In this document: positions 312 to 29,700 of the stretch, piece by piece
Layout: the number at the start of each line of letters is the position of its first letter
How positions within the stretch are numbered: position 1 is the stretch's first letter
From: Rhizaria sp. SCN 62-66
Taxonomy: Eukaryota
DNA: 44,023 nucleotides
Assembly: GCA_001724265.1 (NCBI GenBank)
Contig: MEDY01000258.1
Coordinates: forward strand, 1 to 44,023
Direction: 5' to 3'
Notes under the pieces: generated by a model
The model's input: the letters and a program-made list of their open reading frames with translations, nothing else
Told to the model about the DNA's origin: nothing
Database searches by the model: none
Translations under genes and position numbers: made by a program

Positions 312-314
312 AAC

Positions 315-2315: not shown

Positions 2316-5300
2316 TCAGACCTGCGTTGCGGCGGCAAGCTGCAGGGCCCAGTGCAGCGTCCACGCCGCAAGCACCTGGTCGGCCGACTCCGGTACCGCT
2401 GGAATGCCCTGGATCGTCAGCTGGCGCAGGCGGCGGTGGGCGTGGCGGTGCGCGCGCGTGAGGGCCTGCAGAGCGCGCTTATCGGCCTTGACCTCAGCCT
2501 CAGTCTCAGCCTCAGCCTCAGCATCGGCGTCCGCGTCAGCGTCGGCATCGGCAGCCGGGTCAGGCGTAGGCTTGCTCTCGGCAGCCTTGGCTTTTGACCG
2601 GGTGATGAGCTTACTCGGAGTCTTTTTCGTCTCCGGTTTGGCGTTACTAGCGCCCTTCTCGCCCTCATCGTCATCGTCGTCATCGTCGTCGTCGTCGTCG
2701 TCACTGTCGCTGGCACCGTCGCTAGTAGAGTGCGTGCGCGCCTTAAGCCCAAACAGCGCATTGACCATCCCGCCCCCGACGACAACATCAACACCTGCAG
2801 CCACAGTCGCGTTGCTGTTGTTCGCCGCAGCATTGCTCTCCGCAGCACTTGCAGCGGCAGCAGCGGCAGCGACAGTGGCCGTGGCAGCGGTGTGGCAGAC
2901 CGGCAGCGGGTCCGGGACCAGCCGCGCCCAATGCGTTAGTGCCAGCATGATCCTGAAGATCACGCCCACGCGCGCGTGCGCGGCCGCCAGCGAGGCCTCC
3001 GCAGTTGCCGCGGCGGTGATGCACGCCGCCGCCACGGCCTCGGCCACGGCGACAGCGCTCGACACCGCAGCGCCGCCGACAGTGGCACTTATACTCGAGG
3101 AACTTACACTCGCCGTCGCGTTGTTAGCACGCGCAGAGTTCAAAGTGGCGCCTGTGCTGCTGTGCTTTTGCTGTTGTTGCAGAACGATGTTTCTCCGCGC
3201 AGCGCGCAGCCGGCGGCTCGCGCGGCGGGCGTCCGCGGCCGCGCGCGTTGCGGCCGTGGTCGTGCGCAACAGAGCCTCGATGCGCAGCCGCACCCACCGC
3301 AGCTGCGCGGGCTCACTCAGAGACTGCGCATCGAGCTTCGACTGCAGACCTGACTGTTGCAACTGTGAGTGAGAGCAGGAGCATGGGTGCGTTGTCGAAC
3401 CCGCGGCAATGTTGTTGTTGCTCTGGACAATCGCGATGTTTTTGCTCACGCACGCGCGCGCAGTGGTCGCTGGCAGACTGTGCTGCGCCGCTGCGAAGGC
3501 CAGCGCTGACCGAGGCAGCGACAGCGACGAGCCCAGGGCACCTGTGGTGGCGTCGGCGGCGGAGCGGAGCGACCGGGAGAGGGCGCAGCCAGAGACGCGG
3601 GCAGGCAGCCACGACGGCGCCAGCAACATGCACGGCTGCTGACTCTGCTGCGCTTGCTCTTGCTGGTGCTGCTGTAACTGGGACTGAGGTTGAGGGATGT
3701 AGGTGGGGTAGGATAAGTATGAGTGCACGGGGACGAGTGACGCGTCATCACGGGTTCCTTTGTTGTAAGTGCTGCTGACACTCGCGATGGCAGACAACGT
3801 GGCAGAAGCGGTGTCGAGCAACGGGTGGTATTGGCTGTAGCTAAGCAGCTCTAAGCTCTGCTGTTGCTGCTGCTTTTGTTCGTGCTCCTGTTCCTGCTGT
3901 GAGACCACGGCGACTAGCTTTTGCGTTTGCCTGTTGGTGGCGCTCACTGCAGCCGCTAGTTCATGTGCAGGTAGCCAGTTCACAGTCTCCCACTCGATCT
4001 CGCCGCTAAGGGGGTACTTAGAGCCGCCCTTAGCCCGACAGCAAGCAGCACAATACTGACTCACCGCCGCGCCACTTGTGCCCGGCGACCTCGGAGTCGG
4101 AGAACTGAGAGCGGCGCTCGAGCTCGTCTTCGAGTTGGCGCCGGCGTGACTGCCGCTATGGGACGATGACGAGGGCGGAGGCGAGGGGAAGAGGATGGCG
4201 AACAGACGCGCGAGCGGGCTCACAGTGCCCCAGGCTTCGGGACTGTCCACCACGAGCTGCGCAACGCTGCACGGCGGCACCCACCAGGGACGCACGGTCA
4301 CGCGTTCCGCGTCTAAGGCGGTACTTACACCAGGGCACGCGTGCAGGGCCGACAGCGCGGCGCTCGCGGCGGTGACCGCGCGGTGCGCGGCGGCCGCGGC
4401 GGCGGCGGCCAGCGCGGCGGCGGCCGGGAACGGGCGCGCCGCGCTGGCGACGGCGGCGCTGAAGCTAAGTACTACGTCCTTGGACGGAGGCTGCTGGCAA
4501 GCGCCGAGGCGGCCTACGTTCATGAGCGCTGGAGCGGGGTACATAGACAAGGATTGGTAAGGGTGCCGGGCACTTAGATTCCCGTTGTAAGTACCGAGCA
4601 TGTAAGTGCCCTGTGCGTCGACGGAGTAAGTGCCCGCCTTGCAGCGCAGCGGCGGCGGGTAAGGGTAGCTGTAAGGGGCTAGCGAGCGGTGGAACGACGC
4701 GTGCAGGGGCACTAAGGGGGTCTCAAGCGTGTCTAAGTAGTCGCAGCAAAGGGAAAGTAAGTAAACAGAGCCCCTTAAACGCGGGCGCACGGACACTGTA
4801 AGCACCGCTGTCGGCACACTTACATCGACGCTACTCGCACTCGCATTGAAAGCTGCACCAAGACTGTTCTTGTTGCTGCTGCTGTTGTTGTTGTTGTTGT
4901 TGTTGCTGTTGCTGTTGACGCTAATGCGACGCTTAGTGTTCGAATTAGCGCTGCCAGCATAGGCACTCGCAGTTCCAGTCGCAACTGCATCACTGGCCTC
5001 ATGGTTGTCGCCACCGGCTTCATCGTCCTCGTCGTCCTCGTCACCATCGTTGTCGTCGTTGTCGTCGTTTTCAGAGTCGTCAACGCTACCATTGCTGGCA
5101 TAGTCACTCATGCTAGTGTTGCTTGCATTGTTGGCAGTCGAGCCAGAGCCGGTGGCAACGACAACGATACGGCGGCCGCGGTGGTTCACGCTCGCGTGTT
5201 TAGCGTTCGCCTCTGTGCTCGAAGCGTTATTACTTACCACGACAGCGTTCTTCGCCTTACCAGGACTGCTGCTGCTGCTGTTGTTGTTCGCGTAAGCATT

Positions 5301-7474
5301 CTTGAGCAGAGCCATTGCGCCTGAAATCCCCTTAGACTTCGACTTCCCACCCTTAGACGGCTGTCCACCCTTAGACTTAGCCCCCTTAGACTGGCCGCCC
5401 CTAGACCCAGCGCCCTTATGGCGCCCGCCCTTAGACGACCCGCCCTTGCTTGCGCCGCCCGCAAGACGCTGCTCCCCGTCTAAGTGGGTACTTAGACTCT
5501 CTAAGGAGTCGCACGCCGCGGCGCACGCAGCAAGCGCTGTAATAAGAGACGCACTCTGCGTGCGCGTTGCTGTGACCACAGCGGGCTCCGTCGCGACTGT
5601 GTACGCAACAGCAATGACGCTGTTAGCTGCCTTGCTCGGCGCAGCGACGGAAGAGTTGCTATCGGCGGAGTCGATCAACGTATTGTTGGTGGTCGTGGCG
5701 GCCGGAGCGTCGCTGTCGCTGTTGAGGCTCGCGCGGGCGGCAAGAGGCGTGATCGCGGCAACAACAGAGTCGCTAACAGTGTTTGCGATGCTGTTATTCG
5801 TGTTGCTACTGTTGGCACTCGTACTTATACTGACGCGAGGGCTTTGCGCAACGCTACCCGCGGCCGCGCGGGCACTCGCACTAGCACTCGCACTAGAGCT
5901 GGAGCTCGCAAAGGCAGCTTGAGTCGCGTGGCCACTGGGGCCGGCGGCGCCAGGCCGGCCGGACCGCGAAAGCTGCGACTGCGGCCGCGGCAGTGACGGC
6001 GGCTGCGGCTGCAACAACGCCGGCGTCTGGGTCGGCGTCGGCGTCTGCTGCTGTGGCAACGAGGGCGACGGCGACTGCGACGGCTGCTGAGGGGAAGGCG
6101 ACGGCGGCTGCAAAGGCGGCGGTGGCGGCGGCAGCGGGCGTGGGCGTAAAGCCTCAGCGTCAGCATCAGCGTCAGCATCGGTAGCGGTAACATTCGTAGG
6201 GCTGCTCTGTTGCTGTTGCTGCTGTTGCGGGAGTGCCAGAGCCAGGTCCTTGAGAGGCGTGCTACTTACAGTGGCAATTGGGGCACTTACACTGACAGTC
6301 TCGAACGTACCCGCGTTGCTACTGCGATTACTGTTGCTGTTGTTGTTGTTGCTGTTCGTGAGCAAAGTTGGCGTTTGCGAGTGTGAGCGCGTTAGCAGCA
6401 GCTTCTGAGACTGCTGTTGCTGCTGCAACTGCTGCTGCTGCGCCCGGGTCTGGGCTTGCTGCCGTGACGACGCCTGCGTCTGCGCCTGGGGCTGCATAAG
6501 CAGAGGTCGAGTCGGCGACGGCGACCGCGACAGCGGCTGCTGCCCCGGCGACTGGGACCGCGACCTCTCCGGCGACGGAGACCGCGACCGCGAGTGCAAA
6601 CGCGGCTGCTGCAGCAACGAGAGCGACGGCGACGGCGACGGCGACGGCAGCGGCGACTGCGAGTCCGAGCCAGCGTCGACGTATTGACCGTGAACAGGAA
6701 CATTTCCAGTGCCAGAGCCAGCGCCAGCGCCGGTGCCGTTGAGCGAGCGGCTCTGGCTGCGGCTGTGGTGGCTGCTGCTGTGGCTGCTGTAGCGGCGACC
6801 GTGGCCGGGACTGTGGCCGTGGCGGCTGTTATGGGTGGCGGTGTTGTAGACGTAGCTATCACTCGCCTCACCATCATCATCATCATCATCGTTGTCGTCG
6901 TTGTCGTCATCATTGCCGTCATTCTTGTTTTCAACGACTTCGTCTAAGTGCCACTTAGACTCGTCTAAGGGCGCTTGGGCGTAGTCTAAGTGCAACCGCG
7001 GCCACCACAGCTTGCGGCAGCCACTGCGACTGCTGCGGGTGTTTGATACACTTGTAAGCAGCTCGGATGTAAGTACCTCACGATGTGTAAGTACCCCGAC
7101 TACAACCATCTCACCACCACTATGATTAAACCCAGAACTAGAGATCAAGCCAGAGCCAGAGCCAGAGCTGTTGTTGCTGTTGTTGTTGTTGTTGTTGTTG
7201 ATAGCAGCGGCGGCAGAGACAGCAGCCCAGTCGCCGGCGTCAGCCCTGCCCCTTAGATAGACTAAGTAGGCCTCGGACGCCAGACCCCAGGCCACGGTCC
7301 TTGGAGCACTTACACCAGAGGCTGGGGTACTTAGACTGCCGCTGATACCAGATGCTGAAGTCACACGGCCGTTGCTGTTGTTATGGACGGCACCCTTGAC
7401 AGTGAAAGCAGTGTTATAACTCCGAGTGCTCGTAGTAGCAGCGCCAGTGGTTGTGCTAGTGTTAGCATTGCTAT

Positions 7475-7508
<34 letters not shown>

Positions 7509-10105
7509 AGGTTTGTTGGGTATTGGTGTCGGTAAGATCCGCGCACCAGCCGCGGACCACACGCGCGCCCCACTTACATTGTAAGGGGCACTTAGAGCCC
7601 CGGCCGTGCTGGTGCGCACGCGCGGCTTCTGGACTCCGCGCGCCGCCGCGGCAGCAACAGCGGCGACGGCGGCAGCGGCACCGCTGGCAACCAAGGCGCC
7701 ATTAACGTTTACATTCACATTCGCACTGCTGCTGTTGTTGTTGTTAGTGTTCACATTGGCACTGCTGTCTGCAACAGAGCCAGCGCCAGCGCCGGAGCCG
7801 GGGCGGCCTGTCATGCTGTTGCGAGCACTGCTGCTGCTCGCGTAATTGTTATACGTCGCGGAACCCGTGGGTCGCGTGTAAGTGTAAGTGCCGGCGTTGT
7901 AAGTGTACGCGCCCGCGTTCGCAGATGTTTGCAACGACGGCAACAGGGAACACTGCGCCTGCGGCTGCTGAGGTTGCTGCTGCTGCGGAAGCTGAGCCTG
8001 ATTCGACTGGGCATTGCTATGGCTGATGGAAAGAGTCGGCGGCTTGAGAATCAGCACAGCACGGTTGCTGCCTGCGGCACTTCCATGCGCATCTAAGTAT
8101 CCCGGCTCTAAGGGTGATCGTGTGAGTGTCTGCGCAAGAGCCAACGAGGCCAAAGACGTCACTGCAACAACGCACGTACTGACATCACGGATACTTACAG
8201 TATTGCGCTTCGTCCGGCGATTAGAGCTACTGGAACTCTTATTGTTAGTCGCAGTCGTGGCGGCGGCTACAGTAGTCGTTGTCGTTGTTGTTGATAGTGT
8301 TGGTGCTGCTGAAGTTGTGGTTGTGACACGAGCGGGGGTGGCAGATAAGTTAAGCCGCTTCGGCTTAATAGGACTTTGAATACCGCTAGCAGTCGCAGTA
8401 TGAGCAGCGTTAGCAGCACTGTTGTTAGAGTCCGCGCTCGCATCAGCCCCGGCACTGCCGACGCGAGGCTGCTGCTGACTGCGACTGTAACTCTGACTGT
8501 GACTCTGACTGTGAGCGCGTCGATGACCGCCGTGGCCGTGAGGGCTAGAAGCGCCGTTCGCACTCGCAGTGGCCGCCGCTGCCGCAACGGTCACCGCTGT
8601 TGTCAGCGCAGCGGTGGCGGCAGCGGTGGCGGCGGCAGTCGCAGCATCGGCGCCCGCGGTACCGCGAGCAGGCGCTGGCAGCAACCGCGGCAACAGCGAC
8701 ACAACAGAGCTCGGCAACACAGGGCTAAAATCAGTCGCAGTCTGCGCTGTACCTGTGCTTGGAGCGCGGCTCGTGAAGGGCGGTTGCCACTGCCACTGCC
8801 ACTCCAACTGCTGCTGCTGATGTGAGGATAGCGAGGCAGAGCCCGGAGCAGGGCTGTGCCGCGGGCTGGCGCTGCCCGCATCAGCGCGCGCGCCGCTTGC
8901 AATAGCGTGAGCGCTAGCAGTGGCGTCGGCCGGCCGGCGCACTAGCAGCACCCTGCCACTGCCGCTGCCGCTGCCAACGGCTGCGGCCGCGGCTGCAGGC
9001 GTCGCTGTTGGCGTCATAATCGCGGCAGGAGCGCCAGCAGTTGCGGTACCGGCGCGAGCAGTTGTCGTAGCAGTGGTTGTTGTGGCACGGACTGGTGACA
9101 CCGGAGATCTGGAGCCAGAACCAACAACAAGAACACTCGGGGCAGCAGCAGCAGTGGCAGCATTAGGAACAGCAATAGTGCTAGAACTTGGATTACTTGC
9201 ATTTGCGTTACGAGTCGACGTGTTTTCGTCGAGGGGGCCTAACTTCGGTTCCAGGCGGCCTACATTAAAGGAGGCCAGCTCAGCCTCTAAGTCATCCTCG
9301 AAACGACTACTAGTCGCAGTAGAAACACTCGTACTCTGCGTTTGCTGCTGCTTCAGCGGCGTCTGCTGTTGTTGTTGCTGTTGTTGCTTGAAGGGGGTGC
9401 GATATTGGCCAGCGGACGAAACGGCAACGCCCCCCTTAGTCACCCGGAACGCACCCTTAGACGGGGTGTACGTACCCTTAGACGGAGGCGTCTGCGGAAC
9501 AGCAGCAGTGTCGTCATCGACAGCCGCGCTGAGACTGCCACTCAAAGCAGCAGCGTTGGCGTTGTTGTTTGCTGCGGCCGCCTGTTGCGACGAGCTCATG
9601 CCGACGGCGTCATCGTCGGCAACGGGAGAGTCAACAACGACCTCTGATTTGCGGCCGTTTTCGGCAGTATTCGAGTTAGCGTTGTCAGCGTTGGCGCTGC
9701 TGTCGGTATCATTAGCGTCGCCGTCGCCGTCTTTGTTGTTGTTACTATAGTAAAACAGCGGCAACGGCGCGGCACTCGACGCGCGCAGCCTGCGCACAAG
9801 CTGCAGCTGTTGCTGCTGATGCGGGGCCTGCAACTGCTGCTGCAGCTGCGGCTGCGGCTGGGAGCGCTCGGAGACAGGAGTGGCGGTGGCGAATACGGTG
9901 ACCGTGAGCAAAGTCGTGTAGCCAGCGCCGCCCAGGGCACCCACATCCGGCTTAAGCGAGGTATTTATACTCGAGCTGCTGTTAATGTAAGGGCCGTAAG
10001 CACTTACAATGCCGCCAGTGATGAACTGCAACGCCCACAGATCGACAGTCGCCGCAGTCGCGCTAAAGTCAGGCCGCCTATCGAAGTCAGGCCGCCCATC
10101 ACTTT

Positions 10106-10143
<38 letters not shown>

Positions 10144-13100
10144 ATGGTCGCGTTGTAGTTGCGACTGCTGCTGCCGCTGCTGCTGCTGCTCGTCTTAGAG
10201 CGCTCGAAGTTAGGCCGCCCCCTGCTGCCCCAGACTGCGGCGGCGCCGGGCCCGCCGGCCGTGGCGGGTGCGGCGGCGGCGGCGGCGGTGATGGCCGCGG
10301 TGGCGGTCATGATCGCAGTGGCCTCGGCGGTGACCGTGAGCAGCTGTTGCTGAAGCTGCGACGGCGTCGCCACCGGCGGCGACGGGAACGCGGACTGAGA
10401 CTGCGATTGGGAGCTACTGCTGCTGCTGCTGGTGTTGTTGTTGCTAGTAGGAGATACAAGGAGTGACTGTGAGCTGGTGATGGTGGGGCGTTGCGGGGAA
10501 GTTAAGCCGCCTGGCGGCGAGTTCAAACTGCCTTCACGGACTAAAGTCAGGCCGCGCTTAGCACCCACAGAGCCCGAAGATAAGCCGCCCTTTGAGTTAC
10601 TGCTCATCGAAGCAGTCGTCTTGCTGCTATTGTTGTTGTTGTTGCTGCCACTCGACGCCAAAGTTAAGCCGCCCGCAAAGGCTGTGAGACGCCGGGCGAG
10701 AGCGTTCGCGGCCGCGGTGAGAGGCGCATTGAGCAGAGTGTAAGTGTGCGACTTGCCCTGCTTAAGTACTCCATTAGACTGAGTCAAGATGACCCTCTTC
10801 CGCGATGACTGCTGAGCGTTTGCACGGCCATTGCCGTTGACACTGCCGTTGCTGGTGAGCGCGTTGTAAGTGCCTTGATAGTCGGTGTAGCCGTAGCGGC
10901 TAAGCAGGGTACTTAGATCAGAGGGGAACGGCCGCGATGGCAGGCGCCATGAAGTTAAACCGCCACTCACGGAAGCACTTAGAAGTCCGGGAGTGTTAAG
11001 CCGCATCGGAGTACTTACACCGACACGCCCGCTATCACCGGTGGCCAGAGCGCTGCCGCTACTCTTCGCAGCAGTAGCAGCAGCAGCACTAGTAGCTGCC
11101 GAGGCGACTGTGAGCGCAAGGGCGGCGGACACTGCCGGGGCCGCGGCCAGCAGCGGCCTCAGCACTGCCGCCGGCGGCAGCGGCGGCAGCGGCAGCGGCA
11201 GAGGCAGCGGTGGCGACTGGCCGTGCATGGTAGCACTCGTCGCATTGCTGTTAAAAGCACTGGCACTCGCGTTGGCAGTCTCGACACGAGCGCTCGAAGC
11301 GCGGGAGTGCGCGGTGTTACTCGCGCTGTCAGCATTACGCGTAGTAGTGTAAGTACCGTTGCCAGTGTAAGTGGTGGGGACGAAGCCCTTCGTTCCGGAG
11401 GCTAGTGAGACAGCAACATCACAGCTGTCGCTGCTGTAGGCACTTACACTCGCCGCGAGCCGAGTTTTTGTAGCGCCGTGGTGACGAGAGAGATTGTTCG
11501 TGGTCTCGATGGGGGCGCTTAGATCGAATGTTAGAGCCACTCCGCCCACGCCCTCGCCGTCATCACTGATGGCAATGACGCCAGCGCTGATGGCAGCCGC
11601 CTCAGCATCCGCAGCAGCCGCCGCAGCAGCCGCAGTCGCCCCCGCAGGCACCGGCACAGGCGTAGGTACAGCAGCAGTCGAGTTACTCGCAGCAGCGCCA
11701 GCACTTGCACCCGCATTTGTACTCGCGTTTGTCGCATTAGAACTCGTGCTGTTGTTGCTATTAGCGTTGCCGTTAGTTGCGGCAGTGCTACCCATGGGTG
11801 CCCCGCCACCGGCACCGGTACCGGCGGTGCCCGGGATGACCGTGAGCAGCTGCGCCGCCAGCGCGTCGACCACGGTCACCAGCAGCTCGGGGCAGTGGCG
11901 CAAGGACCGCGAGCGGGGACCGTGGGTGACGGCGTACTGACGCGCCAGCAGCGACAGCAGGGACGCCGGCAGCGGCAGCGGCAGCGAGGCCGCCGCCGCC
12001 GTCGCTGAGGCTGCTGTGGACTGGGACTGAGGCTGCGGCTGCGAGAGTAGCTGCGATGGCGGTGGCTGTGAGCAGTCGCAGCGCTCGCAGTCGCCTTCAC
12101 TCTTGTGCTCGCAGTCAGCTGCGCTATCGGGGCTGCTGCGGCTGCTGCAGCTGCTGTGGCAAAGGCAGAGACAGAACGGGTCAGCCGCCGCCGCTGAACT
12201 CGTGCTTTGACCGCCGCCAACAGTACCATTGTTGGCAATCTTAACGCTTGCGCCGGTGTTAGAGTTGTTATTGGACTGGGGCGTGACCATGGGCAGCAGC
12301 AGCAGCACAGCCGGTGACGCCGGCGCAACAACAGCACCGACGTTGTTCGAGGCGTTGGTGTCGCTGGTGACGGGGAATGAAGCCGCCCCTTCGAGCACTA
12401 GGTCAGACACGGCACGCTGGATCTGCCTGTTAATCCCGACATTCACGCGCGCATTCATTGGAGTCGCACTCCCAGTTGCATTCGCGCTCGCAGCAGAAGC
12501 AGTGGCCCTGGCGTTGCGACTGGCACTGCGAGTGGCATTATCTCCGTTGAGATTGTCAGTGCTTGCCGATGATGTAAGGGTCTCGGCCGTCCGCCTGCTG
12601 GTGATGCCACTAAGTACCTCTTTCTCCTTGCCCTCAGCAAATGTAAGTGCGTTGCTGCCCCCACTGTTGTGATTATTGTTGTAAGTGCTCGAGAATATAA
12701 GTGGCAGCGTACCGCGGCGGGTGTTGTTAATGTAAGCCGCACTCAGACTCGGGCCCGGGGTACTGAGACCGTGGAGCTCGGAGCTACTTAGATGGAGACT
12801 GCGAGAGTTGCCAACGGGGCTATTAGCGGCGGATGAGGAAAAAGTGTGGCTATGGCCGTTCTTTTCAAGAAATGAGCCGCCATTGTTGTTGTTGTTGTTG
12901 GTACTGCTAGCGTTGCTGCTATAGTCGGAGAGAGAGGAGAAAACGGCTGAAAATCGGCGCGGGGAGGGATTGACTTTCCGCACGGGGGTGCTTAGGTCAT
13001 CGATGGGGCCCATAAGAGGGGAGAAAGTGCCAAAAGCACCCTCCTTGCCATCCTCATCGTCGTCCTCTGCATTGTCATTGGCATTGGCATCCGCAATTGC

Positions 13101-16100
13101 AGCAGCAGCAGCAGTAGCAGCAGCAGTCATAGTGTCGGTGTCAGCGTCAGCGGAAATGGCTGCGCTACGATTGCTGTCGCTGTTGCTCTTAAACTGCTGC
13201 TGTTGCTGTTGCTGTAGACGACGTGAAGGGGCCGGGCCGGGGGTAAGGGACGAACCCTGGCTAAGTGCCCCGCGCCTAAGTACCCCGTCGTCTAAGTAAC
13301 CGCCCTCCATGCCGTCTAAGTGCCCCCTCACACTGTTCTGCAGCAACGACAGCTGCGCCTTCTGCGCCTGAGCCTGCGCCTGCAACTGTGCTTGGCGAGG
13401 TTCAGAGTCGTCCAGCGGCGGCACCGGCGGCAGTGGCAGCAGAGGCACTGACGGCGTAGACTTAGCACTGTGAGTCGCCGTTGTCACGGTGTTTGTTGCT
13501 GTGCAGGCATGTGTGCTTGTGGACAGGATTGGTGGCAAGATCAGCGCCTCGGAGCTGCTGCTCGAGGCGAGCAACCCCTTAGACTGGCTAAGTACCCCCT
13601 TAGACCCGAACTCAGTGGCCGTGAGCTGCGCGTGCGACCGCGAGTGCACCAGCATATGCGGCTGCAATCGCGGCTGCGCCTGTGCCTGGGACTGAGCCTG
13701 GGACTGGGCTGCCGTTGGCGTTGAAGGGGGTAGATTGAGCGACAGTAGCCGCTGCTGCTGCTGCTGCCTCTGCTGCTGCTGCTGCTCCTGCGGCCGCTGT
13801 TGTTGTTGCTGCTGCAGCAAGATGCGTTGCGTAAGTACCTTCGGCAGTGTAAGTGACCCCCTATGAGCCCTTTGCTGACCGCTTGCACCGTCACTCACAT
13901 TTGCGCTCGCAGTGCTGCTGAAAGTATTCGTGTTGCCAAAAGGCAATCTCCGCAGCTGCTGCTGCTGTTGTTGTTGCTGCAGCTGCTAGCGTGTAAGTAG
14001 ACGGAGCTTAAGTACCTTGCTCGCGACGTTGAGTAAGGCCGCGGTCGCACCCGCCAAAACGCGAAACGCCGGCGCAACGACGCTACTACTACTGCTGCTG
14101 CTGTTGTTAGTGCTGTTATTCGCGCCGCCCGCGTGGGCGTTGCCACTGGCGCTCAGCGCGCGATTGCTCCGAGGAGCCGTGTTATTCGCGTTATGTGCGT
14201 TACTACTGCTGCTGTTGCTGCTGCTGTTGTTGGTGTTGGCGTTCGGCGAAGTACTCAGAGGTGTAAGTACCCCCTTGCCCTGACTCTGCGGCGGCAGACT
14301 GCTCGCTGCTGCAGGAGTAAGAGCACCCTTAGACGGCTGCTGCGGAGTCGTTAATGTAAGGGCCCCCTTCGACGCCACCGGCAACAAAAACCTGCCACCT
14401 TTAGAGGGAGACGCAGGAGCACTTACGCCGGAAGCCGAGGTACCTAAACCGCTCGCAGGAGCACTTAGATCCTTGGACAGCTGCCGATTCGCTTGCAACT
14501 GCAGCAAAGTGCCCCTGTTGCTGCTAGGGACCAGAGTGTTCGTGTTAGGATTCGCTGTCGTTGTTGCTGTTGTTGCTGTTGGTGCTTGTAGCGGCTGTTG
14601 CGGCAGTGGCGGCAGTTGTGTTTGCCAAAGCCTCTCTTCCTCTTCAGCAAGACTCATCACACGACGGCCCACGCTCGCACTTGCGCTGGCATCGACACTT
14701 GGACAGGCAGAGGCACCGTCAGCATTGGTCGCGCCACAGTCGCAGCTTGTCTTGCTCGAGTCTACGGTGTTATTGTCGTTGTCGTCGTTGCTACTGGACT
14801 TGCTGTTCGCGCTCAAAGTGGCTGCGTTGATGATAGCCGTCGTCGTGACCGTCTCCGCCGTATACACGTCGAGAGCTTTGGCCCAAACAGACAGCAGCAT
14901 CACCCCTGCGCCTGCGCCTGCCCCTGCACCTGTCACGGGGCCAGAGCCGGAGCCCGCCCCGCCACTGACACCCTGGCCCTGCGGTTCGGATGCGAGAACC
15001 CCTTGAGACCACGCGTCGAGCAGAGCGTCGAGATACTCCTCGAAATCGAGGCCACAGCGGTCTAAGTACCTACTTAGACTGCCGTATAGGTCTAGCTGTG
15101 GCCGTGCTGTAAGTGCCCCACCCCCGTCGCTGCCGCTGTTTGAACCCTTAGACTTGGACAGTGTAAGTACGCCCTTAGCGACGGCGGCACGCATGCCCAC
15201 GAGGCCCGCAACGCCGCCGCCCCGGAGCTGCGGTCCTGCGAAGACGGCCCTTAGACGGTCTAAGTACCCAGCAAACTCGAAGACGCAGCGCACCTGTTTG
15301 TTGGTCTGGATGCACGCCGGGCGCCGCTTGCGCACGATCTGGATCGCGGCTTGGGGCCTCAAAGCGCCTGGGCCGGCGCGCGCGTAGAGCAGCCACGCCG
15401 CGATCACCAGTCTGCGAAGCGCAAGAAATACCACAGATGATGGGATATAGTGCACAAGATAATATCTGTGAGACTTAAAACGTGACATTGAGATATAAAA
15501 TACGGTATTTCATATTGATCATTAAAATAAAGGAAATAATTAGATATTCTCATATAAATCGACGATAACAAAAAAATCCTGATTTTCTCCACAACTTTCG
15601 CATTGAGCTAAAGCAAGACTAATTACAAAAATGTGACGAATTGCATAGAGTTAAAAAAATATATGTTTGTTTTGTGTTTTTGTGAGTGATATAGCGTACC
15701 CTGTGCGGCCGTATCCCGCGTGGCAGTGGACCGCGACGGCCTCCCCGCGGCCCCGGATGTGCGTGTCCATAGTCTGCGCAGCAGCCAGCAACAGCTGTAG
15801 CGACGGCACGGCCATGTCGACCCACGCAAACGAGTACATGATCACGCCCGCGGTGTTGAGCAGCTCGGCGGGGTCGTAACTGAAGCCAGAGCCGCGCGGA
15901 TCGAGCCCGCCGCCGCACAGAGGATGCTAGCCGGGGATCTGCAGGTTGAACACAGCCGCGACGCCCTTTGCGCGCATCTGTTGCCAGATGCCATGCGTCT
16001 GGTTCAGCCGCGTGGCGGGCCGCTGCATAGCGATGATGCGAGGGGTGATCCACGTCGAGTTGAGCCCCCTTAGCGCGGATGTAAGGGGGTACCCGCGCTG

Positions 16101-16550
16101 CTGCGTCCAGTCCTCGTGCTTGCAACGCGCGCCGTTGCAGAAAACGCAGATGATTTGACCGTGAGGTACGGGCGGCGCAGCGGACCAGGCGGATCGAAGC
16201 ATCCCCTTAGAGGACTTCTTGTTCTTGCCCTTACCCTTGCCCGCACCGCCGTCAGCGTTCGTGTTGCTGTTGTTGTTGTTGTTTAAGGCGAGATAAGGGG
16301 TTGCGAAGAGGGAGTCTGAGCCAATGGACGACAATAAAACGCGTTTTTGTTGCTGGTCACTGGAGCCCGCCGCAGCCGCCGCAGCCGCCGCAGCCGCATT
16401 GCCACTGCTAGAGCCAGTGCTAGGACTGGTGACAGTGGTCGTCAGCGGCGGCAGATGGAAGCTGTTGCCGTTATTACTGTTGTTGTTGCTACTGAGTTGT
16501 GAGTCATACCAAACAAACGAGCCCTTCGCGTGATGCTGCTGTTGCTGCTG

Positions 16551-16643
<93 letters not shown>

Positions 16644-17012
16644 TTGTTGTTGCTGATGAAGCGTGAGCGGGCCATAGGGCGCAACCTTGCTCGAGCTGCT
16701 GCCAGTGCCAGTGTAAACAGCACCCACTGTGCCGCCGCCGCCGCCGCTGCCGCTGCCGCCTGGGATGCTATTGCCCGCGATGGCAGCGGCATGAGTAGCC
16801 GTTTGAGCGTGAAGTTGAGAGCTGGAGCGTAAGTATCCCGACGCAAGCGGCGCTGTGGGCAGGGCGCGCAGGCGCCCAGTGTGCGCGCTCGCAAAGCCGT
16901 TCGCGGCCGCGGCCAGGTCGCGGTCGCGGCTGCTGCCGTTGCCGCCGCCGCTGTTGGCGGAGGAAGAGGGATGAAGGGGCAAGGCGGCGACGGAGCTGGC
17001 GCCGCATCCCAT
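2316..17012 (-). CDS. PTPDC1: Giant PTPDC1-like dual-specificity protein phosphatase, join(17012..15700,15411..2316), ~4,802 aa if two in-frame TAG codons (15929-15927, 13988-13986) are read through
   Basis: Starts MGCGAS. PTPDC1-type segments: C..C.G..CKHE.W, GLNSTWITPRIIAMQRP, FNLQIPG*HPLCG...SGFSYDP, FAWVDMAVP, the catalytic loop HCHAGYGRTG (completed across the intron to LVIAAWLLY), and AIQIVRKRRPACIQTNKQ. The ORF-track pieces 15927..17132 and 15651..15845 share one frame, as do 13986..15488 and 2316..13946. Ends in TGA. Confidence 0.75.
15412..15699 (-). other. Spliceosomal intron (288 nt) in the PTPDC1-like gene
   Basis: GG|GTACGC...TTCGCAG|A, AT-rich. Splicing restores GRTG-LVIAAW. 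Confidence 0.9.
16554..16655 (-). repeat. Poly-Gln trinucleotide tract: 34 Gln codons, including 29 uninterrupted CAG
   Basis: (CTG)29 at 16554-16640 on the + strand, followed by (TTG)4 CTG. Confidence 0.95.
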
Positions 17013-17582
17013 CTTGGCGCGGGTGTGACGGGCGGAAACAACTGTGCGCCCACTTCTTATAGCCTCTTGTTGCTGGTGTGTAGTGCTAGAGTTTGCTGAA
17101 ACTCTGTTAAAGTGCTGTAGAGTGGGGAACAAAGAAGAACAAGTTCAAATTGTGTTAACAGGAGAAAGAGTGCTCTCTTCAAGCGCATACCAAGCCATAA
17201 ATGCGTTTCTAAATGATATTAAAAGCAGAATTAATACAAATATAGATATACTATCTATCCATCTTGGCTATGCTCTAGTTGACGGAAAGACCCCAGCGCT
17301 AGACACTCATAAAGTATCCCATCTCCCCGTTACTCCGACTACACAAACGGCTCGGACAAGGCAGCGATCGAGCTTGGTAACATCTCTCTTAATGTGTCCG
17401 CACCAGATCTGAGTAATCCAGAATAAGCGTCGCACATAAATAAGACATATCTTTATTTTTACCATGAGAGATCAGAAAACATCACAAAACAACCACATAA
17501 ACACGAAACATATCATAAAACTCGTGCCGTCACATAGGACGAAGCACCTCAAAGCGCGTCCCAAAGCGTTATACTTCGCTCT

Positions 17583-20266
17583 TTAACCCCAGAGTTTGAC
17601 GCTGCCGTCCCATGAGCACGACGCGAGCGCCTTGGGCGCGTTGGGGTGCCAAGCCACGTCGATGGTCACGTCATCGTGCGCGCGCACCTTCTTGACCATG
17701 CGGCCGCTGCGCCAGTCCCAGAAGAGCATTTTCCCCTCGGCGTCTCCAGCCACAAGCGTGCCTCCATCGGGCGAAAACGCCATGCCGCACGCGAAGCCGG
17801 CGGCCAGGTGGCCTGTGAAGCGGCGGCGGCGGTTCAGCTTGAGCTTGGGCTGGAGCGCAAAGAGCAAGATCTCGTTGTTCTGTGCGTTGCCGACCAAGTA
17901 CTTGCCGCTGGGGTGCACCGCGACCGTGGGCATGACGTGCAGGTCCGTCTCGAAGATCTCCTTCAGCACGACGGGGATGCCGTATTCCCACAGCAGCATC
18001 TTCTTGTCGTCGCCTGTGGTCACGAACCTGACCCCGCCCGCGCTCGCGGAAGTTAAGCCGCCCTGGAGCGCGTTGGCGTCGTCGTCGTCCAAGGGGGAGG
18101 AGTTGGGGAGGAAAGTGACGGAATCGACGGCGGCCATGTGATCCGGGTACTTCTGGGTCACGTGTCCCGCGCGCGTGTCCCACTGAAGCACGACCTTTTC
18201 GTTCATTCCCGTGAGGACCTCGCCGACACCGCTGGACCCACTACCCACGCTGCTGTTATCAAACCCACCGGTGCTCGTGGAACCCATGGTCCCCGTGCTG
18301 TTGGGGTGAAACGCCGCGCACAGTGGAGTCATGCGTTCGTGCTTGAGCCGCGACACCACGGCGCCGGTCTCGGTGTCCCAGATCTTGACCCACTTGTCGT
18401 GGCTCACAGTCATGATCGCGCGGCCGTCCGGGGAGAAGACCGCGGAGCGGACGCCCGCGCCGTGGCCGGTGTAGGAGCGCAGCACACGGGCCCGTGCGGC
18501 GCCGGTGGCGGCACCGTGGGGGCCCAGGCCCTCCCAGTTGTAGCCGGCGCTTGCGCTCGCGCTCGCACTGACATTGTTGTTCTGGTTCGTGGGGGAGGAG
18601 AGGACGCGGTTGGTGGCGTTGCGGCGCAAAGCGACCGCGTCAGAGCCGTCATCGTCGCCAGCGTTGTCGTCGTCGTTGTCACCGTTCCCGTTACGCGGCT
18701 TCTCACTCTCACGGCCACGGCCGGTGTCGGTGGTGTCCGTCCTGTTGCTGCAGCCCGCGTCAGCGCCGGCTTCGCCGGGGGTAGGGGCGGTGAAGGCGGG
18801 CGCGGAGAAGGACGACTGGGCGTAGGCGTTGATGGCCGTGTTGGTCGTCGCATACGCACTGCCGCCGCCGACAGAGGTATTGCTATGGTGACTCGCGGAA
18901 CGCATGCCGGTACCCGTGGCAGAGAAGGGCGACGCGGCGGCGTCCCACACCCGCACCGTGCCGTCGAGGGAGCTGCTGAGCAACAGGTGGCCGGTGCCGG
19001 GGAAGTAAGACACGGAGCTCACGCCCTTCGCAGACCCAGCGCCCGCGCCAGCGCCTGACCGGGAGCGAGAGCTCGAGCTCGAGCTTGAGCTCGAGCTTGA
19101 GCTGCTGCTGTAGGGGGTAGAGCGGAGGGTGTTGATGAGCTTGGTGGGGAGACTGCAGGAGAGCTCGGGACCCAGAAACTATTGAAAACATAGCGCAAAA
19201 GAAGACCACAAAAAAATAAGTGAACAGAGAGTGTGAGTGTGTGAGTATGAAAGCTGAAAAGCAAGTTTGTAAAAACAAATTCGTTGAGTTTGCAAATTAC
19301 CTTGAATCCAGCAGGGATGTCGACGAAGGAACGCCCGCGGAAGTCCCTCTCGACGCTGCCGAAAAACCGCGTGCTCTCGAGCGCAACCTCGGCCGCCATG
19401 ACTGCCGCCGCGGCCTCTGCCTCCGCCTCAGCGGCCTCCGCCTCGGCGGCCTCGGCGTCTGCAGACTGACCTGTGGGGATGCGGCCGGCCTTGCGCGCGG
19501 CGGCCGCCTTGAGCTTGAGCTTCTGCGCGTGCGCGGCGGCGTTGGCCTGCTGCTGCTCCGAGAGAGGGGCCACGGCGGCGGCGGCGGCGGCGGCGGCCTC
19601 GCCCTTGAAGGCCGCCCAGGGTCCCCTGTAGCCGTCTAGGTCGGCGGCGTCGGCGGACGACTCCTCGCGCGCGCGCCGAGCCCTGCTACTCACTGGCGCG
19701 CCTCCAACCGCAGCAGCAGCAGCAGGGCCAGTGGCGCTGGCGGCGGCGGCGGTGGAGTTGTTGCGTGAAGCGTTGTAGTTGACGTTGAAGTTGTCCGCGT
19801 GCGCGGGGATGTAAACGCGGTTGACCTGACCGTGGGCCGAGGCACGCAGGCGGGACTGCACCGCGCCGGCGCCCACGGCGGTACCTGTGAGCGACAACGC
19901 CGCGTACGACCCGCCGGAGACGGCGGCGGCAGACTGATGCGCCGTCAGGGCAGTTGAAGCGTTGCTAGGGACAACGATAGAGTGAGTGTTTGCGCTGTGA
20001 GTGTGGGAGTTAGCAGTGTTTGACTGGAGGCGAGAGGGGTCAATGCGGGGTGCGGCGGAAAACATTGCGCGGGACGGTAGCGCGAACTCGTCGCCATCAT
20101 TGTCGTCGTTGTCACTGCTGCTGCTGCTGTCGCTGCCGTCGTCGTTGTCGTCGTCGGAGTCCGTCGTGACGGGCTTGGTGCTGCTGGTGGCGGTGCTGGG
20201 CTCGAAGTCGCTGCCGCTGCTGTCATTGTCGCTGTCGGAGGCGTAGGCGGCAAAAAGAGACGCCAT
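17583..20266 (-). CDS. PRP17: Pre-mRNA splicing factor PRP17/CDC40 (WD40), join(20266..19301,19178..17583), ~853 aa
   Basis: Motifs GY.GPWA.F, RDFRGRSFV, C.LP.KLI, KGVS...FP.TGHLLLS.SLDG.V.VWD, multiple WD repeats, FTGH.AAGFAC...FSPDG and terminal SCSWDGSVKLWG. Ends in TAA. Confidence 0.9.
19179..19300 (-). other. Spliceosomal intron (122 nt) in PRP17
   Basis: AAG|GTAATT...TTTCAATAG|TTT. Splicing joins ORF 19019..20290 to the frame of 17583..19022. Confidence 0.85.
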
Positions 20267-23159: not shown

Positions 23160-23231
23160 TGTACTAGCCGGGGTTTGAACCCGGGGCCTTTCCGTTGCGA
23201 ACGGAACACTCTACCACTGAGCCACTAGCAC
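23160..23231 (-). tRNA. tRNA-Ala(CGC)
   Basis: Cloverleaf GTGCTAG-TG-GCTC-AGTGGTA-GAGT-G-TTCCG-TTCGCAA-CGGAA-AGGCC-CCGGG-TTCAAAC-CCCGG-CTAGTAC-A, with G3:U70, A73 and a downstream TTTT. Confidence 0.93.
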
Positions 23232-23300
23232 GGCTGCTCTTTACAAGCTTCTTGACATTTGATGGGGAAAGGGAGAGGTGCAAAAAAACAAAAAGAAGTG

Positions 23301-23373
23301 TGTAGCTTGGGGGCATTGATCCCCCTGCCCCGCGCATGCTAAGCGCATACTCTACCATCTGAGCTAAAGCCAC
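23301..23373 (-). tRNA. tRNA-Ala(AGC)
   Basis: Cloverleaf GTGGCTT-TA-GCTC-AGATGGTA-GAGT-A-TGCGC-TTAGCAT-GCGCG-GGGCA-GGGGG-ATCAATG-CCCCC-AAGCTAC-A, with G3:U70, A73, the A54-type T loop of eukaryotic tRNA-Ala, and a downstream oligo-T Pol III terminator. Confidence 0.93.
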
Positions 23374-26700: not shown

Positions 26701-29700
26701 CTGACACACGAGGCCCTGGTACTTACACGCGACGCGGGGGTACTTAGAGCGGCGTTACTTGCGTTCGCGCTGTTATTGTTGTTAGCGGTGGTTTTGAGGA
26801 GTGCGAGGAAAGGCTGCGGCAGAGAGTGTAAGTACGAGGGCGATAAAGCAGCAGCAGCCGGCAGCCACTCGTACCGCGACTGCAATACCGACATTAACAA
26901 CAAAGTGTCGGCGTCACTCGCGTCCGCGTTATAATTGTTCTTGCCGTTTTGGCTCTGTGCAGTCTGTGTAGCAAGTGACTGTGTAAGTGACTGTGAGAGG
27001 GTGACCGTGCGCGGGTGAGCCCGGTCAGCCAGGTACCCCGCTAGTTTCGCAGCCGCGGTCGCACTGAGAGCGCTGGTACTTACACTCGCGGCGGGGACGG
27101 AAGTTAAGCCGCCGACCGCGATCAGAGGGAAAAACACACTGGTAATGCCGCTCGTGTTGGTATTCGAGTTCGTTATCTGCGGCAGTGACTGTGTAGCGCG
27201 GACACGTGCCTGAATGTAAGCCGCCATGTGTTCCGCCGCCGCCAGCGAGAGCCCACAGTCAGTGAGATCAAGCACAGACAGTGCCGAGAAAACGCCAGTC
27301 GCAGCCACCGTATGACTCTGACTGGTGTAGTCACTGTTGTCGTAGTTGTTATTATCGAAGGGCGGCGGAGGCAGAGTGACTGCGAGCACGGTCGCGGCAC
27401 ATACAATAGCTGGGTCTTCGGTGAAACCAGCGCTGTTATTGTTGTTATTGTTGCCATCAGAGTCGTTGCCGTCGTAGTAATAGCTGTCATCATCATCGTC
27501 ATCATAGTCTTCGTCGTCGTCGTCGTTGTCGCCAGCGTGCGTGTTGTCAGAGACACTGTTGTTGTTGCTGTTGTTAGAGTTCGAGCTTAAAGCAAGGGCG
27601 GAGCGGAGAACGATAGGGGCCGCAGCAGTCGCAGTCAGTGACGCCACACTCAGCCTATGAAAACGCAGTAAGAAAGTGCGTTAGGAGCGCGAACAAAATA
27701 AATGGATAAAGTAGAATTCAAAAGTGAGATAAACGTGGATTTAACAATGTTTCAAGTTGTTTTTGGGAAGTTATAGAGAATATACGCCTGACTTATACAC
27801 CCGGTCGCAATCGCTTTGGCGAGCGGATACCATTCAGTGGCGAAAGAAAAGAAACAGCCTTTTGCTAAACAAAGTAGTTTCTGACAAAACTACTGTTGCA
27901 AAATAGTAAAGGTGTTTTCACAACATCAATCAAGTTTAGTTCATTTCGTGTGTGACGATTTAGCATGATAGAGTGAGATTTGATTTCATTTTTGAGATTT
28001 GATAGTGCGTACCTGCGGCCGTCATTCGTGGCCGAGGCCAGCTCCGCCAGAGCCCAGGTCACCAGTGACCTCAGCAGGGAATGCCGCGCCCTCACTGCAG
28101 CCACACTCTCAACACAACCACTCGCAGCTGCAGCAGCAGCACTGGCGCTAGCCGCAGCAGGAGAGCTAGACTGCTGGCCCGTGCTCGAAGGGTTGTTGTT
28201 CGTGCTTTCCCAGTCAAATTGGAACGACATAGGCACTCCTTGCGCAATCAACATCTCCTTCAGGCGGTCTTCTCCCCCCTTAGACTGGGAATCTCCCCCC
28301 TTAGATTGCAGCGACTCTGCAGTGTTTGTGGTCAAAAGCGCCCCCAGCGAGTCTTCGTCACGCTTTAACGCACTAATGCGGGCCAAAACGGCGTCCAACC
28401 CTTCCTTTTCGCCGTTATTATTCGCGCCATCCGCGCTTTTTTCGGTCCCGTACAGCGCCGCTTTCACGGCGTTCGGATCCGCCGCCGCAGCCGCCTCGGC
28501 CGCCGCTTCCCGTTGCCGCTGCAACTCTTGCTGTTGCCGCAGGAGCCGCTGCCGGCGTGCTCCTGTCGCTGTGGTGAGGTCTGTGGCGTCGGTGTCGAGC
28601 TCGGGGTGCGCGAGGGTCAGCCAGGAACTAAGTATCCCCTTAGAGCTCGGATGCGCAGCTGTTGCACCGGAAACAGAGCCATCTGCGCTACCGTTGCCGT
28701 TACCGTTGTTGTTGTTGTTTGCGCTAGAGTTGGCGTTAGAGAGCGAGGCGGGGGCTGGAGTGAGCATGTAGCTGTTGTGTGTCAGTGAAATGACAGAAAG
28801 CGCAGTCATTGGAGGCACTGGGGCTGCGGTAGACGCGATTAAACCGCACAAGGGACTCCACAGCTGCTGCTGCTGCTGCGGCTGCTGAGGTCGCTGCGAC
28901 TGCTGCTGTTGCGCTGCTCCTGCTGCAGTCGACGTTGCCGCAGTTGTGGAGATGGGTGTCGCTGTTGCAGTAGACGTTGTTGCCGTCGTTGTTGTTTTGG
29001 GTGGATGCGGCGAGAGTGCAGCCGCAAACAGCTGCGACGTTTTCGCGTTGGGCCACGGCAGGTTCGCCAGCACTTCCGGCACCGTCCCGAGCGCGCTGGC
29101 GGCCGCAGCGAAGGCTCCCAGACACTGGCGATCGCCGTCACCGACAGGGTGAGTGTGGCCACTGCCTTGCTCGATGTCAGGACCAGTGACGGTGCGAATG
29201 TAGCGCTGCTGTTGCGCAAGCATAAGGGCCAGCGCAGGCGCAAGCAACGGCACAAGAGTAGCCACAGCAGCCGCGTCGCCGCCACCACCGCCGCCAAGGC
29301 TCCTACCATTGCTGTTGCCGACAGCAAAGCCGCTCTGCATGCCCATGGCACTTAGACTAGAGGTACTTAGATGGCAAACCCACTCCCAGTGGTTCTGCGC
29401 GTGCGCCGGCAGCAGCGCGGGCAGTCTAGCCCAGAAGTTAGGCCGCCTCGGCGTCGCTAGTTGCGGCAATTGCGGCGCAGGCGCGTCAGACAACACCGAC
29501 TGCATGAGCGCTGCGGACAGTGACCCTCCGGCGACGAGTGTGTCGAGCACGTGAAACGCGGCGGCGGGGCCCAGCGCGTTGTGGCTAAGGTCCAAGTGCG
29601 TGAGCGTCTTGGCGGCCGGCGATAGTAACAAGGCGGGGACGACTGTGCGCATGAGGGCGGCGTCGGTTAAGCCGCAGTACGCAAGTGAAAGCCGCGTGAG

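What the first reader, a model, noticed from the sequence alone, without database searches (positions are those of the whole stretch)
15927..15929. In-frame TAG at a conserved position inside an intact phosphatase domain: candidate UAG stop-codon reassignment
Seen: the minus strand reads TTC AAC CTG CAG ATC CCC GGC TAG CAT CCT CTG TGC GGC (FNLQIPG*HPLCG). It continues in frame to the intact catalytic loop HCHAGYGRTG and ~4,400 more codons without frameshift. All seven gene models here end in TGA (5) or TAA (2), none in TAG. Known (recalled, not searched): PTPDC1 proteins have NLQxPGEHxxCG here, so the TAG sits on a conserved Glu, and no intron could remove it without deleting the motif. Nuclear codes that reassign UAG while keeping UAA as stop are rare (UAG=Gln in Iotanema, UAG=Leu in an uncultured rhizarian). 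Inference: UAG is a rare sense codon (Glu or Gln) in this genome, or is read through or edited. Caveat: only two such TAGs occur in over 12,000 codons, and one G>T change from GAG would also explain this one.
Basis: partly seen in the sequence, partly recalled or inferred. Interest (0 to 1): 0.85.

Follow-up and report, generated by a model that had tools for sequence, protein, structure and literature searches.

The report
In-frame UAG in conserved phosphatase gene
An uncultured wastewater protist has a UAG stop codon exactly where all relatives of a phosphatase gene encode glutamate, in an otherwise intact gene, so either the cell translates through UAG or it has only just lost the gene.

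Summary
The TAG at 15929-15927 (minus strand) is real and in frame. It replaces a Glu found in 150 of 150 aligned homologues. It is not an assembly error: an identical metagenome contig and contigs from three sequencing studies (2015-2025) all carry it, and no contig shows another base. The gene is one 4,803-codon PTPDC1-like gene (17012..2316). A second in-frame TAG lies at 13988-13986. There are no frameshifts, and 42 of 44 strongly conserved domain columns are kept. Both TAGs sit in the same heptamer, GC-TAG-CA, followed by CAN-YYN, which resembles a known leaky-termination context. None of 8 putative terminators is TAG. No genome is held for this organism, so tRNA-CUA, eRF1 and genome-wide TAG use could not be tested. 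My odds: UAG is translated through, by suppressor tRNA or code change or by context-dependent readthrough, about 0.45. A very young pseudogene is about 0.35. The case is unresolved but remains a credible recoding candidate.

The parts
15927..15929 (-). In-frame TAG no. 1, at the position of an invariant Glu (GEHxxCG motif) inside the phosphatase domain, upstream of the catalytic loop
   Evidence: Aligned residue is E in 149/150 and 150/150. Same base in L001 and in contigs of runs X1, X3 and X4.
13986..13988 (-). In-frame TAG no. 2, in a low-complexity stretch just before a poly-Gln run (..LLTR*QLQQQQ..). Same heptamer GCTAGCA as TAG no. 1.
   Evidence: Bridged only by X1 record 6, a possible source run.
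15700..17012 (-). Exon 1: ATG, MGCGAS N-terminus, low-complexity region, and the first part of the PTP domain through HCHAGYGRT(G)
   Evidence: N-terminus shared with P0002 and P0003.
15700..15728 (-). Catalytic P-loop HCHAGYGRT(G). The last Gly codon is split by the intron (GG|A).
   Evidence: Columns 145-154 are all conserved.
15412..15699 (-). 288-nt AT-rich GT-AG intron (GTACGC...CAG), phase 2, with six in-frame stops
   Evidence: The spliced product matches homologues (GRTG|LVIAAWLLYA).
2316..15411 (-). Exon 2: rest of the PTP domain, about 4,300 codons of mostly low-complexity sequence with conserved islands to the C-terminus, and the TGA stop at 2318-2316
   Evidence: Collinear islands with P0003.
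13986..14015 (-). Candidate 30-nt GT..AG segment (GTACTT...GCTAG) that would remove TAG no. 2 if it were an intron. I judge this unlikely.
   Evidence: It is not AT-rich. Measured introns are 288 and 358 nt and start GTACGC.

Best explanation
The two UAG codons are genuine and are the only base seen at these positions in every assembly examined. They lie in a single-copy PTPDC1-like phosphatase gene that shows no other damage. They are most likely passed by the ribosome rather than ending translation, so a full-length protein is still made. Shown: the codons exist in the DNA of several samples; the first replaces an invariant Glu; the rest of the gene is intact; and both lie in the same weak-termination-like context (GC-UAG-CA, then CAN-YYN, with C at +4), whereas putative real terminators in the window use UGA or UAA and none has C at +4. 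Inferred: UAG is decoded here. One route is a suppressor tRNA. Glu would fit the first site, and that would be an early or ambiguous stage of UAG capture. The other route is context-dependent near-cognate readthrough, which in yeast inserts Gln, Tyr or Lys. Which of the two applies cannot be told from 44 kb.
For: 1. The base is not an error as far as contigs can show. L001 is 100% identical over 2,361 nt and carries TAG. X1 record 6 (13757-16249), X3 record 14 (13991-16249) and X4 record 23 (14856-16063) each have 0 other letters and 0 gaps. They come from three studies, and X4 is not flagged as a possible source. The only variant listed in 15.1 kb is 6581 A>G in X1.
2. The site matters: E in 150/150 homologues.
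3. There is no decay. 42 of 44 columns that are >=85% conserved are kept, including all 27 downstream of the TAG. There are no frameshifts in 4,803 codons. Collinear conserved islands with the 1,565-aa relative P0003 reach the last 25 residues.
4. The context is shared. Both TAGs lie in GCTAGCA. Only 33 of 4,801 codons have GC..CA flanks, and only 3 of 685 codons one step from TAG do. Both are followed by CAN-YYN, which holds for 100 of 4,801 codons. That is four of the six positions of the type-I readthrough motif UAG-CAR-YYA (PMC3542737, passage read).
5. 0 of 8 putative terminators are TAG. Of the 9 ORF ends behind those 8 genes (two overlapping ORFs at the first), 8 have a purine at +4 and none has C.
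6. Contigs from a polyA RNA library lie along the gene down to 2913-3158.
Against: There are only two TAGs in about 12,300 codons, and both are in one gene; a pseudogene predicts that clustering. No in-frame TAG appears in the other genes. TAG is the expected nonsense product here: 61-66% of stop-creating substitutions give TAG, so 'both are TAG' carries little weight. Only one homopolymer run of >=6 nt exists, so the absence of frameshifts is weaker evidence than it looks. The context match was noticed after the fact, and neither site fits the full CARYYA motif. Near-cognate readthrough at UAG inserts Gln, Tyr or Lys in yeast, not Glu (PMC4150775, abstract). There is no stimulatory RNA structure (z = -0.36). 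No tRNA-CUA lies in the window. Orthologues have a Glu codon at the site, so this is not a conserved programmed readthrough site. The RNA-library contig over TAG no. 1 extends only 19 letters beyond it, under the tool's 31-letter rule. It also holds 28 nt of intron, so it may be unspliced RNA or DNA carry-over.
Confidence: 0.45

Rival explanations
1. Young unitary pseudogene or truncating allele under the standard code. A G>T change (GAG>TAG) and a second substitution (most simply CAG>TAG) became fixed in a nearly clonal population. Translation stops at codon 362, before the catalytic Cys, and the rest of the gene has not yet had time to decay.
For: Both stops are in the same gene, and none of the other genes has one. 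Each is one step from a common codon; the gene has 253 CAG and 75 GAG codons, and 61-66% of possible nonsense changes give TAG. The population is almost invariant across runs from 2015 to 2025, with one variant in 15.1 kb, so a mildly harmful change could fix. TAG no. 2 directly precedes a poly-Gln run. Zero TAG among 8 terminators is expected by chance at roughly 0.1-0.2 if TAG normally ends about a fifth to a quarter of genes (that share is my assumption).
Against: Two nonsense changes occurred with no frameshift in 14.4 kb, and 42 of 44 conserved columns are intact. The identical GC-TAG-CA / CAN-YYN context of both stops has a chance of about 0.005-0.02 per site. Conserved C-terminal islands are retained. 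RNA-library contigs lie along the gene (weak evidence).
Confidence: 0.35
2. A null allele in a diploid or mixed population. An intact GAG allele exists, but the assemblers collapsed or dropped it.
For: All runs laid are Logan contigs, which drop rare variants. The independence of X1, X3, L001 and the window is not established.
Against: No contig with another base at 15929 appears in any of the 4 runs, although a variant contig at 6581 was kept. X4 is a separate study from 2025 and also has TAG. Depth of the contig (38.9 in X1) equals that of the flanks at 33.9-39.5.
Confidence: 0.08
3. RNA editing of the UAG, for example fungal-type A-to-I editing (UAG>UGG), which restores reading frames in Fusarium 'pseudogenes'.
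For: Precedent: restorative editing of premature stop codons in 71 F. graminearum pseudogenes (PMC10776026, abstract in listing). That editing prefers U at -1 and hairpin loops (PMC11156358, abstract in listing). The best named PRP17 matches are fungi at 42-43% identity.
Against: Editing would give Trp where 150/150 homologues have Glu. Neither TAG sits in a predicted stable hairpin loop (z = +1.46 and -0.22). The one RNA-library contig over the site reads TAG (weak evidence).
Confidence: 0.03
4. Sequencing or assembly error at 15929.
For: None found.
Against: The same base appears in the window, in L001 and in contigs of X1, X3 and X4 from three studies, with 0 differences.
Confidence: 0.02

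Closest known systems
Oligohymenophorea sp. PL0344 nuclear code (UAG = Glu, UAA = Lys, UGA = stop)
   Same: UAG stands for glutamate while another stop codon is kept, and suppressor tRNA genes were found there (PMC10553269, abstract read).
   Different: That organism is a ciliate, and the reassignment was established from whole-genome and transcriptome analyses. Here there are two UAGs in about 12,300 codons of a GC-rich, intron-bearing, non-ciliate-like genome, UAA is still a terminator, and no tRNA is known.
UAG-only reassignment in phyllopharyngean ciliates (UAG = Leu or Gln, UAA the preferred stop)
   Same: Only UAG changes meaning, and it was found in uncultured taxa from metagenome data (PMC11687900, abstract read).
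   Different: There the reassigned UAG has 'widespread usage as sense codons'. Here usage is extremely rare and confined to one gene. The aligned residue here is Glu, not Leu or Gln.
Type-I stop-codon readthrough signal UAG-CAR-YYA (tobamovirus type)
   Same: UAG followed by CA and then two pyrimidines at both sites (motif from PMC3542737, passage read).
   Different: Neither site matches all six positions (CAU CCU and CAG CUG). The stop is not conserved in orthologues. It lies in the middle of a catalytic domain, not at a C-terminal extension. Yeast readthrough inserts Gln, Tyr or Lys (PMC4150775, abstract read).
Restorative A-to-I editing of premature UAG in filamentous ascomycetes
   Same: Intact-looking genes carry in-frame UAG codons fixed in the genome (PMC10776026 and PMC11156358, abstracts in listing).
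   Different: Editing yields Trp, which is the ancestral residue in those cases. Here the ancestral residue is Glu, and there is no hairpin-loop context.
Blastocrithidia nonstop code (UAR = Glu, UGA = Trp)
   Same: UAG is read as Glu in a non-ciliate protist (PMC12153298, abstract in listing).
   Different: There all three stop codons are reassigned. Here UGA and UAA end all 8 putative genes.

Membership tests
PTPDC1-like Cys-based protein phosphatase | P-loop HCxxGxxR(T) | tested here: met
   HCHAGYGRTG is present. Columns 145-154 match residues conserved in 136-146 of 140-147 homologues.
PTPDC1-like Cys-based protein phosphatase | W-x-D general-acid loop and N-terminal Cys cluster (CxxCxGxxC) | tested here: met
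   W113 and D115 (D in 150/150). C5, C8 and C13 are conserved.
PTPDC1-like Cys-based protein phosphatase | NLQxxGEHxxCG motif | tested here: inconclusive
   All residues are present except that the Glu codon is TAG.
PTPDC1-like Cys-based protein phosphatase | Significant sequence similarity to named members and a Pfam phosphatase model above its cut-off | tested here: met
   P0152, 'protein tyrosine phosphatase domain-containing protein 1-like [Penaeus japonicus]', has E = 1.6e-19 and 40% identity. PF22785 scores 30.1 bits against a cut-off of 27.
Nuclear genetic code with UAG reassigned | In-frame UAG at conserved positions in many genes | tested here: not met
   There are two UAGs, both in 1 of 8 putative genes. 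Only 44 kb is available.
Nuclear genetic code with UAG reassigned | UAG absent or rare as a terminator | tested here: inconclusive
   0 of 8 putative terminators are TAG. The sample is too small.
Nuclear genetic code with UAG reassigned | tRNA gene with a CUA anticodon | not testable with these tools
   The window holds only two tRNA-Ala genes. No genome is held.
Nuclear genetic code with UAG reassigned | Altered eRF1 stop-codon recognition motifs | not testable with these tools
   eRF1 is not in the window, and no genome is held.
Programmed stop-codon readthrough (type I) | UAG followed by CAR-YYA | tested here: not met
   CAU-CCU and CAG-CUG match only CAN-YYN.
Programmed stop-codon readthrough (type I) | Stop codon conserved in orthologues | tested here: not met
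   Orthologues encode Glu, 150/150.
Unitary pseudogene | Disabling mutations under the organism's code | tested here: inconclusive
   There are two nonsense codons if the code is standard. The code itself is the open question.
Unitary pseudogene | Signs of relaxed constraint (frameshifts, loss of invariant residues) | tested here: not met
   0 frameshifts in 4,803 codons, and 42/44 conserved columns are kept.
Restorative A-to-I editing site (fungal type) | Edited product (Trp) equals the ancestral residue, with a hairpin-loop context | tested here: not met
   The ancestral residue is Glu, and no stable hairpin is predicted.

The most novel reading that the evidence does not exclude
An uncultured, GC-rich, intron-bearing protist of wastewater reactors is caught at an early, ambiguous stage of UAG codon capture. 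UAG has been purged from terminators. A suppressor tRNA, most simply tRNA-Glu(CUA), competes with eRF1. UAG is so far tolerated as a sense codon only in weak-termination contexts (GC-UAG-CA), even at an invariant catalytic-domain glutamate. UGA and UAA remain the stops.
Probability: 0.22. Interest if true: 0.85.

Novelty: new member of a known kind. Interest (0 to 1): 0.55.

Why it matters
If UAG is decoded here, this would be a UAG-only recoding outside the ciliates, in a deep, unnamed eukaryotic lineage. The nearest named PRP17 match is only 42-43% identical. It would also be at a stage where the codon is still very rare and context-bound. The 'ambiguous intermediate' model of code change predicts such a stage, but it is seldom observed. 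The organism recurs in reactor and wastewater metagenomes and has long contigs, up to 99,771 and 192,873 letters in the runs laid. The question can therefore be settled from public data. If instead it is a young pseudogene, the finding is ordinary. It would then record the loss of a phosphatase that I recall as cilium-associated; no call tested that link.

Tried and rejected
1. Assembly error: rejected at contig level.
2. An intron removing TAG no. 1: rejected. NLQIPG directly precedes the TAG and HPLCG directly follows it, and both are conserved.
3. The 'TAG terminator' of ORF 27865-30102: the TAG lies inside a 358-nt GTACGC..TAG intron (28012..27655). Removing that intron joins the ORF in phase to ORF 23772-27227.
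4. A 30-nt mini-intron over TAG no. 2 (14015-13986): kept only as a remote option. It is not AT-rich, is 10 times shorter than the measured introns, and starts GTACTT rather than GTACGC.
5. RNA structure after TAG no. 1: none (z = -0.36). Hairpins around either TAG: none.
6. GCTAGCA enrichment across the window: none. There are 8 sites against 12.2 expected.
7. Whole genome: none is held.
The contigs of the nearest relatives (P0001/P0154, P0003) could therefore not be read.
9. GTDB scan for mis-binned contigs of this organism, using its PRP17: the 80 loci kept of 358 relatives are all bacterial WD40 proteins at 22-34% identity.
10. Protein search with the N-terminal 437 aa: swamped by low-complexity words. 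It gave 6 hits and no same-species read-through form.
11. PDB sequence search: only weak P-loop matches, best E = 0.11.
12. RNA evidence: the polyA-library contig at 15672-15948 passes the TAG by only 19 letters, under the 31-letter rule, and holds 28 nt of intron. It shows neither splicing nor editing. No splice joint for either intron candidate is among the 15 joints printed, and 1,237 more were not shown, so nothing can be said.
14. Taxonomy: no named close relative was found. The best named PRP17 matches are Coemansia spp. at 42-43%. Supplementary files of papers were not consulted.

Full report
**What is in the sequence.** The minus strand reads TTC AAC CTG CAG ATC CCC GGC TAG CAT CCT CTG TGC GGC, with the TAG at 15929-15927. 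It is in frame with an ATG at 17012 (MGCGAS...) and with the phosphatase P-loop HCHAGYGRTG. The window is eukaryotic nuclear DNA. It has GC-rich exons (about 60% GC) and AT-rich introns and spacers (33-40% GC). Its genes include Sin3, PRP17, an Efg1-like protein, an LRR protein and a TIG/TRP membrane protein.

**Gene structure, corrected.** Directly after GYGRTG the frame runs into an AT-rich stretch with six stops. This stretch is a 288-nt GT-AG intron, 15699..15412, GTACGC...CAG. Removing it gives GRTG|LVIAAWLLYARAGP..., which matches the homologues P0001 and P0003.
- The spliced CDS has 4,803 codons and ends in TGA at 2318-2316. It holds exactly two in-frame stops, both TAG: 15929-15927 and 13988-13986.
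- Weak but collinear similarity islands with the 1,565-aa relative P0003 run from the shared MGCGAS start to the last 25 residues. This is therefore one gene, about three times longer than its relative because of poly-Q/N/A/S expansions.

**The site.** An exhaustive HMMER search found 716 homologues at E <= 0.001, and 150 were listed. The residue aligned to the TAG is E in 149 and S in 1 by BLAST, and E in 150/150 by MAFFT. Among 44 columns that are >=85% conserved, the window's protein agrees at 42. The exceptions are the TAG and one F>M change. All 27 conserved columns downstream of the TAG agree. A named relative is 'PTPDC1-like' (Penaeus, E = 1.6e-19). No intron can remove the TAG, because the conserved residues NLQIPG and HPLCG flank it directly.

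**Is the base real?**
- A JGI metagenome contig (L001, 2,361 nt) is 100% identical to window 15390-17750 and carries the TAG.
- Public runs that hold this stretch come from bioreactor, wastewater and activated-sludge metagenomes.
- When laid on 2200-17300, three contigs cover TAG no. 1 with 0 other letters and 0 gaps. They are X1 record 6 (13757-16249), X3 record 14 (13991-16249) and X4 record 23 (14856-16063).
- X1 and X3 may be sources of the window. X4 is a 2025 sample from another study.
- The only variant listed across 15.1 kb and four runs is 6581 A>G in X1.
- All of these are Logan contigs, so a minor allele cannot be excluded.
- TAG no. 2 is bridged only by X1 record 6.
- A contig from a polyA RNA library (X5, 15672-15948) reads TAG. 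It passes the codon by only 19 letters and includes 28 nt of intron, so it shows neither mature mRNA nor absence of editing.

**Terminators.** One search lists 13 ORF ends.
- Three end in TAG. Two are the in-frame TAGs. The third (27865) lies inside a 358-nt GTACGC...TAG intron (28012..27655) that joins two ORFs of the LRR gene in phase.
- The end of ORF 30897-31823 lies in the AT-rich island 31782-31949, which I take to be the Sin3 intron.
- That leaves 8 putative gene ends, all TGA or TAA.
- Of the 9 ORF ends behind those 8 genes (two overlapping ORFs at the first gene), 8 have a purine at +4 and none has C.

**Context of the two TAGs.**
- Both lie in the heptamer GCTAGCA.
- Only 33 of 4,801 codons in this CDS have GC before and CA after. 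Only 3 of the 685 codons one substitution away from TAG do.
- Both are followed by CAN-YYN, which holds for 100 of 4,801 codons. 8.8% of codons are followed by CA and 25.5% by C.
- CAN-YYN covers four of the six positions of the type-I readthrough signal UAG-CAR-YYA (PMC3542737, passage read). Neither site matches that signal in full.
- I noticed the shared context after the fact, so I count it as suggestive only.

**Weighing the explanations.**
- For a plain pseudogene: both stops are in one gene and none appears elsewhere. In this CAG-rich gene, 61-66% of stop-creating substitutions yield TAG. The population is nearly clonal.
- Against a plain pseudogene: there are no frameshifts in 14.4 kb, though only one homopolymer run of >=6 nt exists. 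The conserved residues and the C-terminus are intact. The two stops share an identical context.
- For decoding: the points just listed against a pseudogene, the absence of TAG terminators, and precedents. UAG = Glu with UGA kept as stop is known in a ciliate (PMC10553269, abstract). UAG-only reassignments with UAA kept are also known (PMC11687900, abstract).
- Against a full reassignment: UAG is extremely rare here. In those ciliates, usage is described as widespread.
- Against simple near-cognate readthrough: yeast inserts Gln, Tyr or Lys at UAG, not Glu (PMC4150775, abstract). No downstream structure is predicted.
- Fungal-type A-to-I editing would give Trp and prefers hairpin loops (abstracts in the listing). 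Neither condition fits.

**Verdict.**
- I put about 0.45 on UAG being translated through. That splits roughly into 0.25-0.3 for a suppressor tRNA or incipient reassignment and 0.15 for leaky readthrough.
- The remaining odds are about 0.35 for a very young pseudogene, 0.08 for an unseen intact allele, 0.03 for editing and 0.02 for error.
- These odds are my judgement, not a computation.
- The decisive data are the rest of this organism's genome, its tRNAs and eRF1, and raw reads.
- A GTDB scan for mis-binned contigs returned only bacterial WD40 genes.

Noticed in passing
window 2316-17012 and 23772-30102 (for example 15246-15268, 7068-7095, 6943-6959): A 10-nt motif TSTAAGKRSC (reverse GSYMCTTASA) occurs 39 times against 0.95 expected from shuffles. 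It is found on both strands, almost only inside the low-complexity coding parts of the PTP and LRR genes, and in none of the four metagenome loci L001-L004 held at that call, which include the relatives L002-L004. Frame use is strict: CTTAGA is read only as C TTA GA (15/15), and CTTACA never in that frame. Copies often pair as short inverted repeats TCTAAG-N5-8-CTTAGA, which encode SKGxLT. TAG no. 2 lies 3 nt after such a site. The cause is unknown; transposon footprints and a spreading palindromic coding unit are both possible.
   Followed up: partly
window 15699, 28012, about 31727: All three recognisable introns start AG|GTACGC rather than GTAAGT. They are AT-rich (33-38% GC) within exons of about 60% GC. 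The Sin3 intron opens with three CCACTTACA repeats.
   Followed up: partly
window 2200-17300: The organism is almost invariant across metagenomes from three studies, 2015-2025. One variant contig (6581 A>G in X1) is listed in 15.1 kb. This suggests a clonal, widely spread wastewater or bioreactor eukaryote.
   Followed up: no
window 17583-19178 with 2316-17012: PRP17 lies next to the PTPDC1-like gene. The nearest relative keeps this neighbourhood: P0154 (PRP17, 67% identical) and P0001 (PTP, 68% identical) each report one contig, with the same longest-contig length of 5,318 nt. P0001's called ORF starts abruptly at VFCNG without a Met, which could mean an intron or an in-frame stop just upstream in that relative. 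Its contig could not be read.
   Followed up: no
window 2316-17012: The protein has 4,802 residues against 1,565 in relative P0003. The conserved islands are separated by huge poly-Q/N/A/S/T tracts. The N-terminus MGCGAS looks like a myristoylation/palmitoylation signal (recalled, not tested) and is shared with P0002 and P0003.
   Followed up: partly
window 23160-23373: Two tRNA-Ala genes lie 69 nt apart on the minus strand, with anticodons CGC and AGC.
   Followed up: no
window 284-1727: Two long ORFs overlap on opposite strands: 284-1576 on the minus strand (430 aa) and 315-1727 on the plus strand (470 aa, with a weak C2H2 zinc-finger hit, E = 0.0023). Which one is the gene was not settled.
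   Followed up: partly
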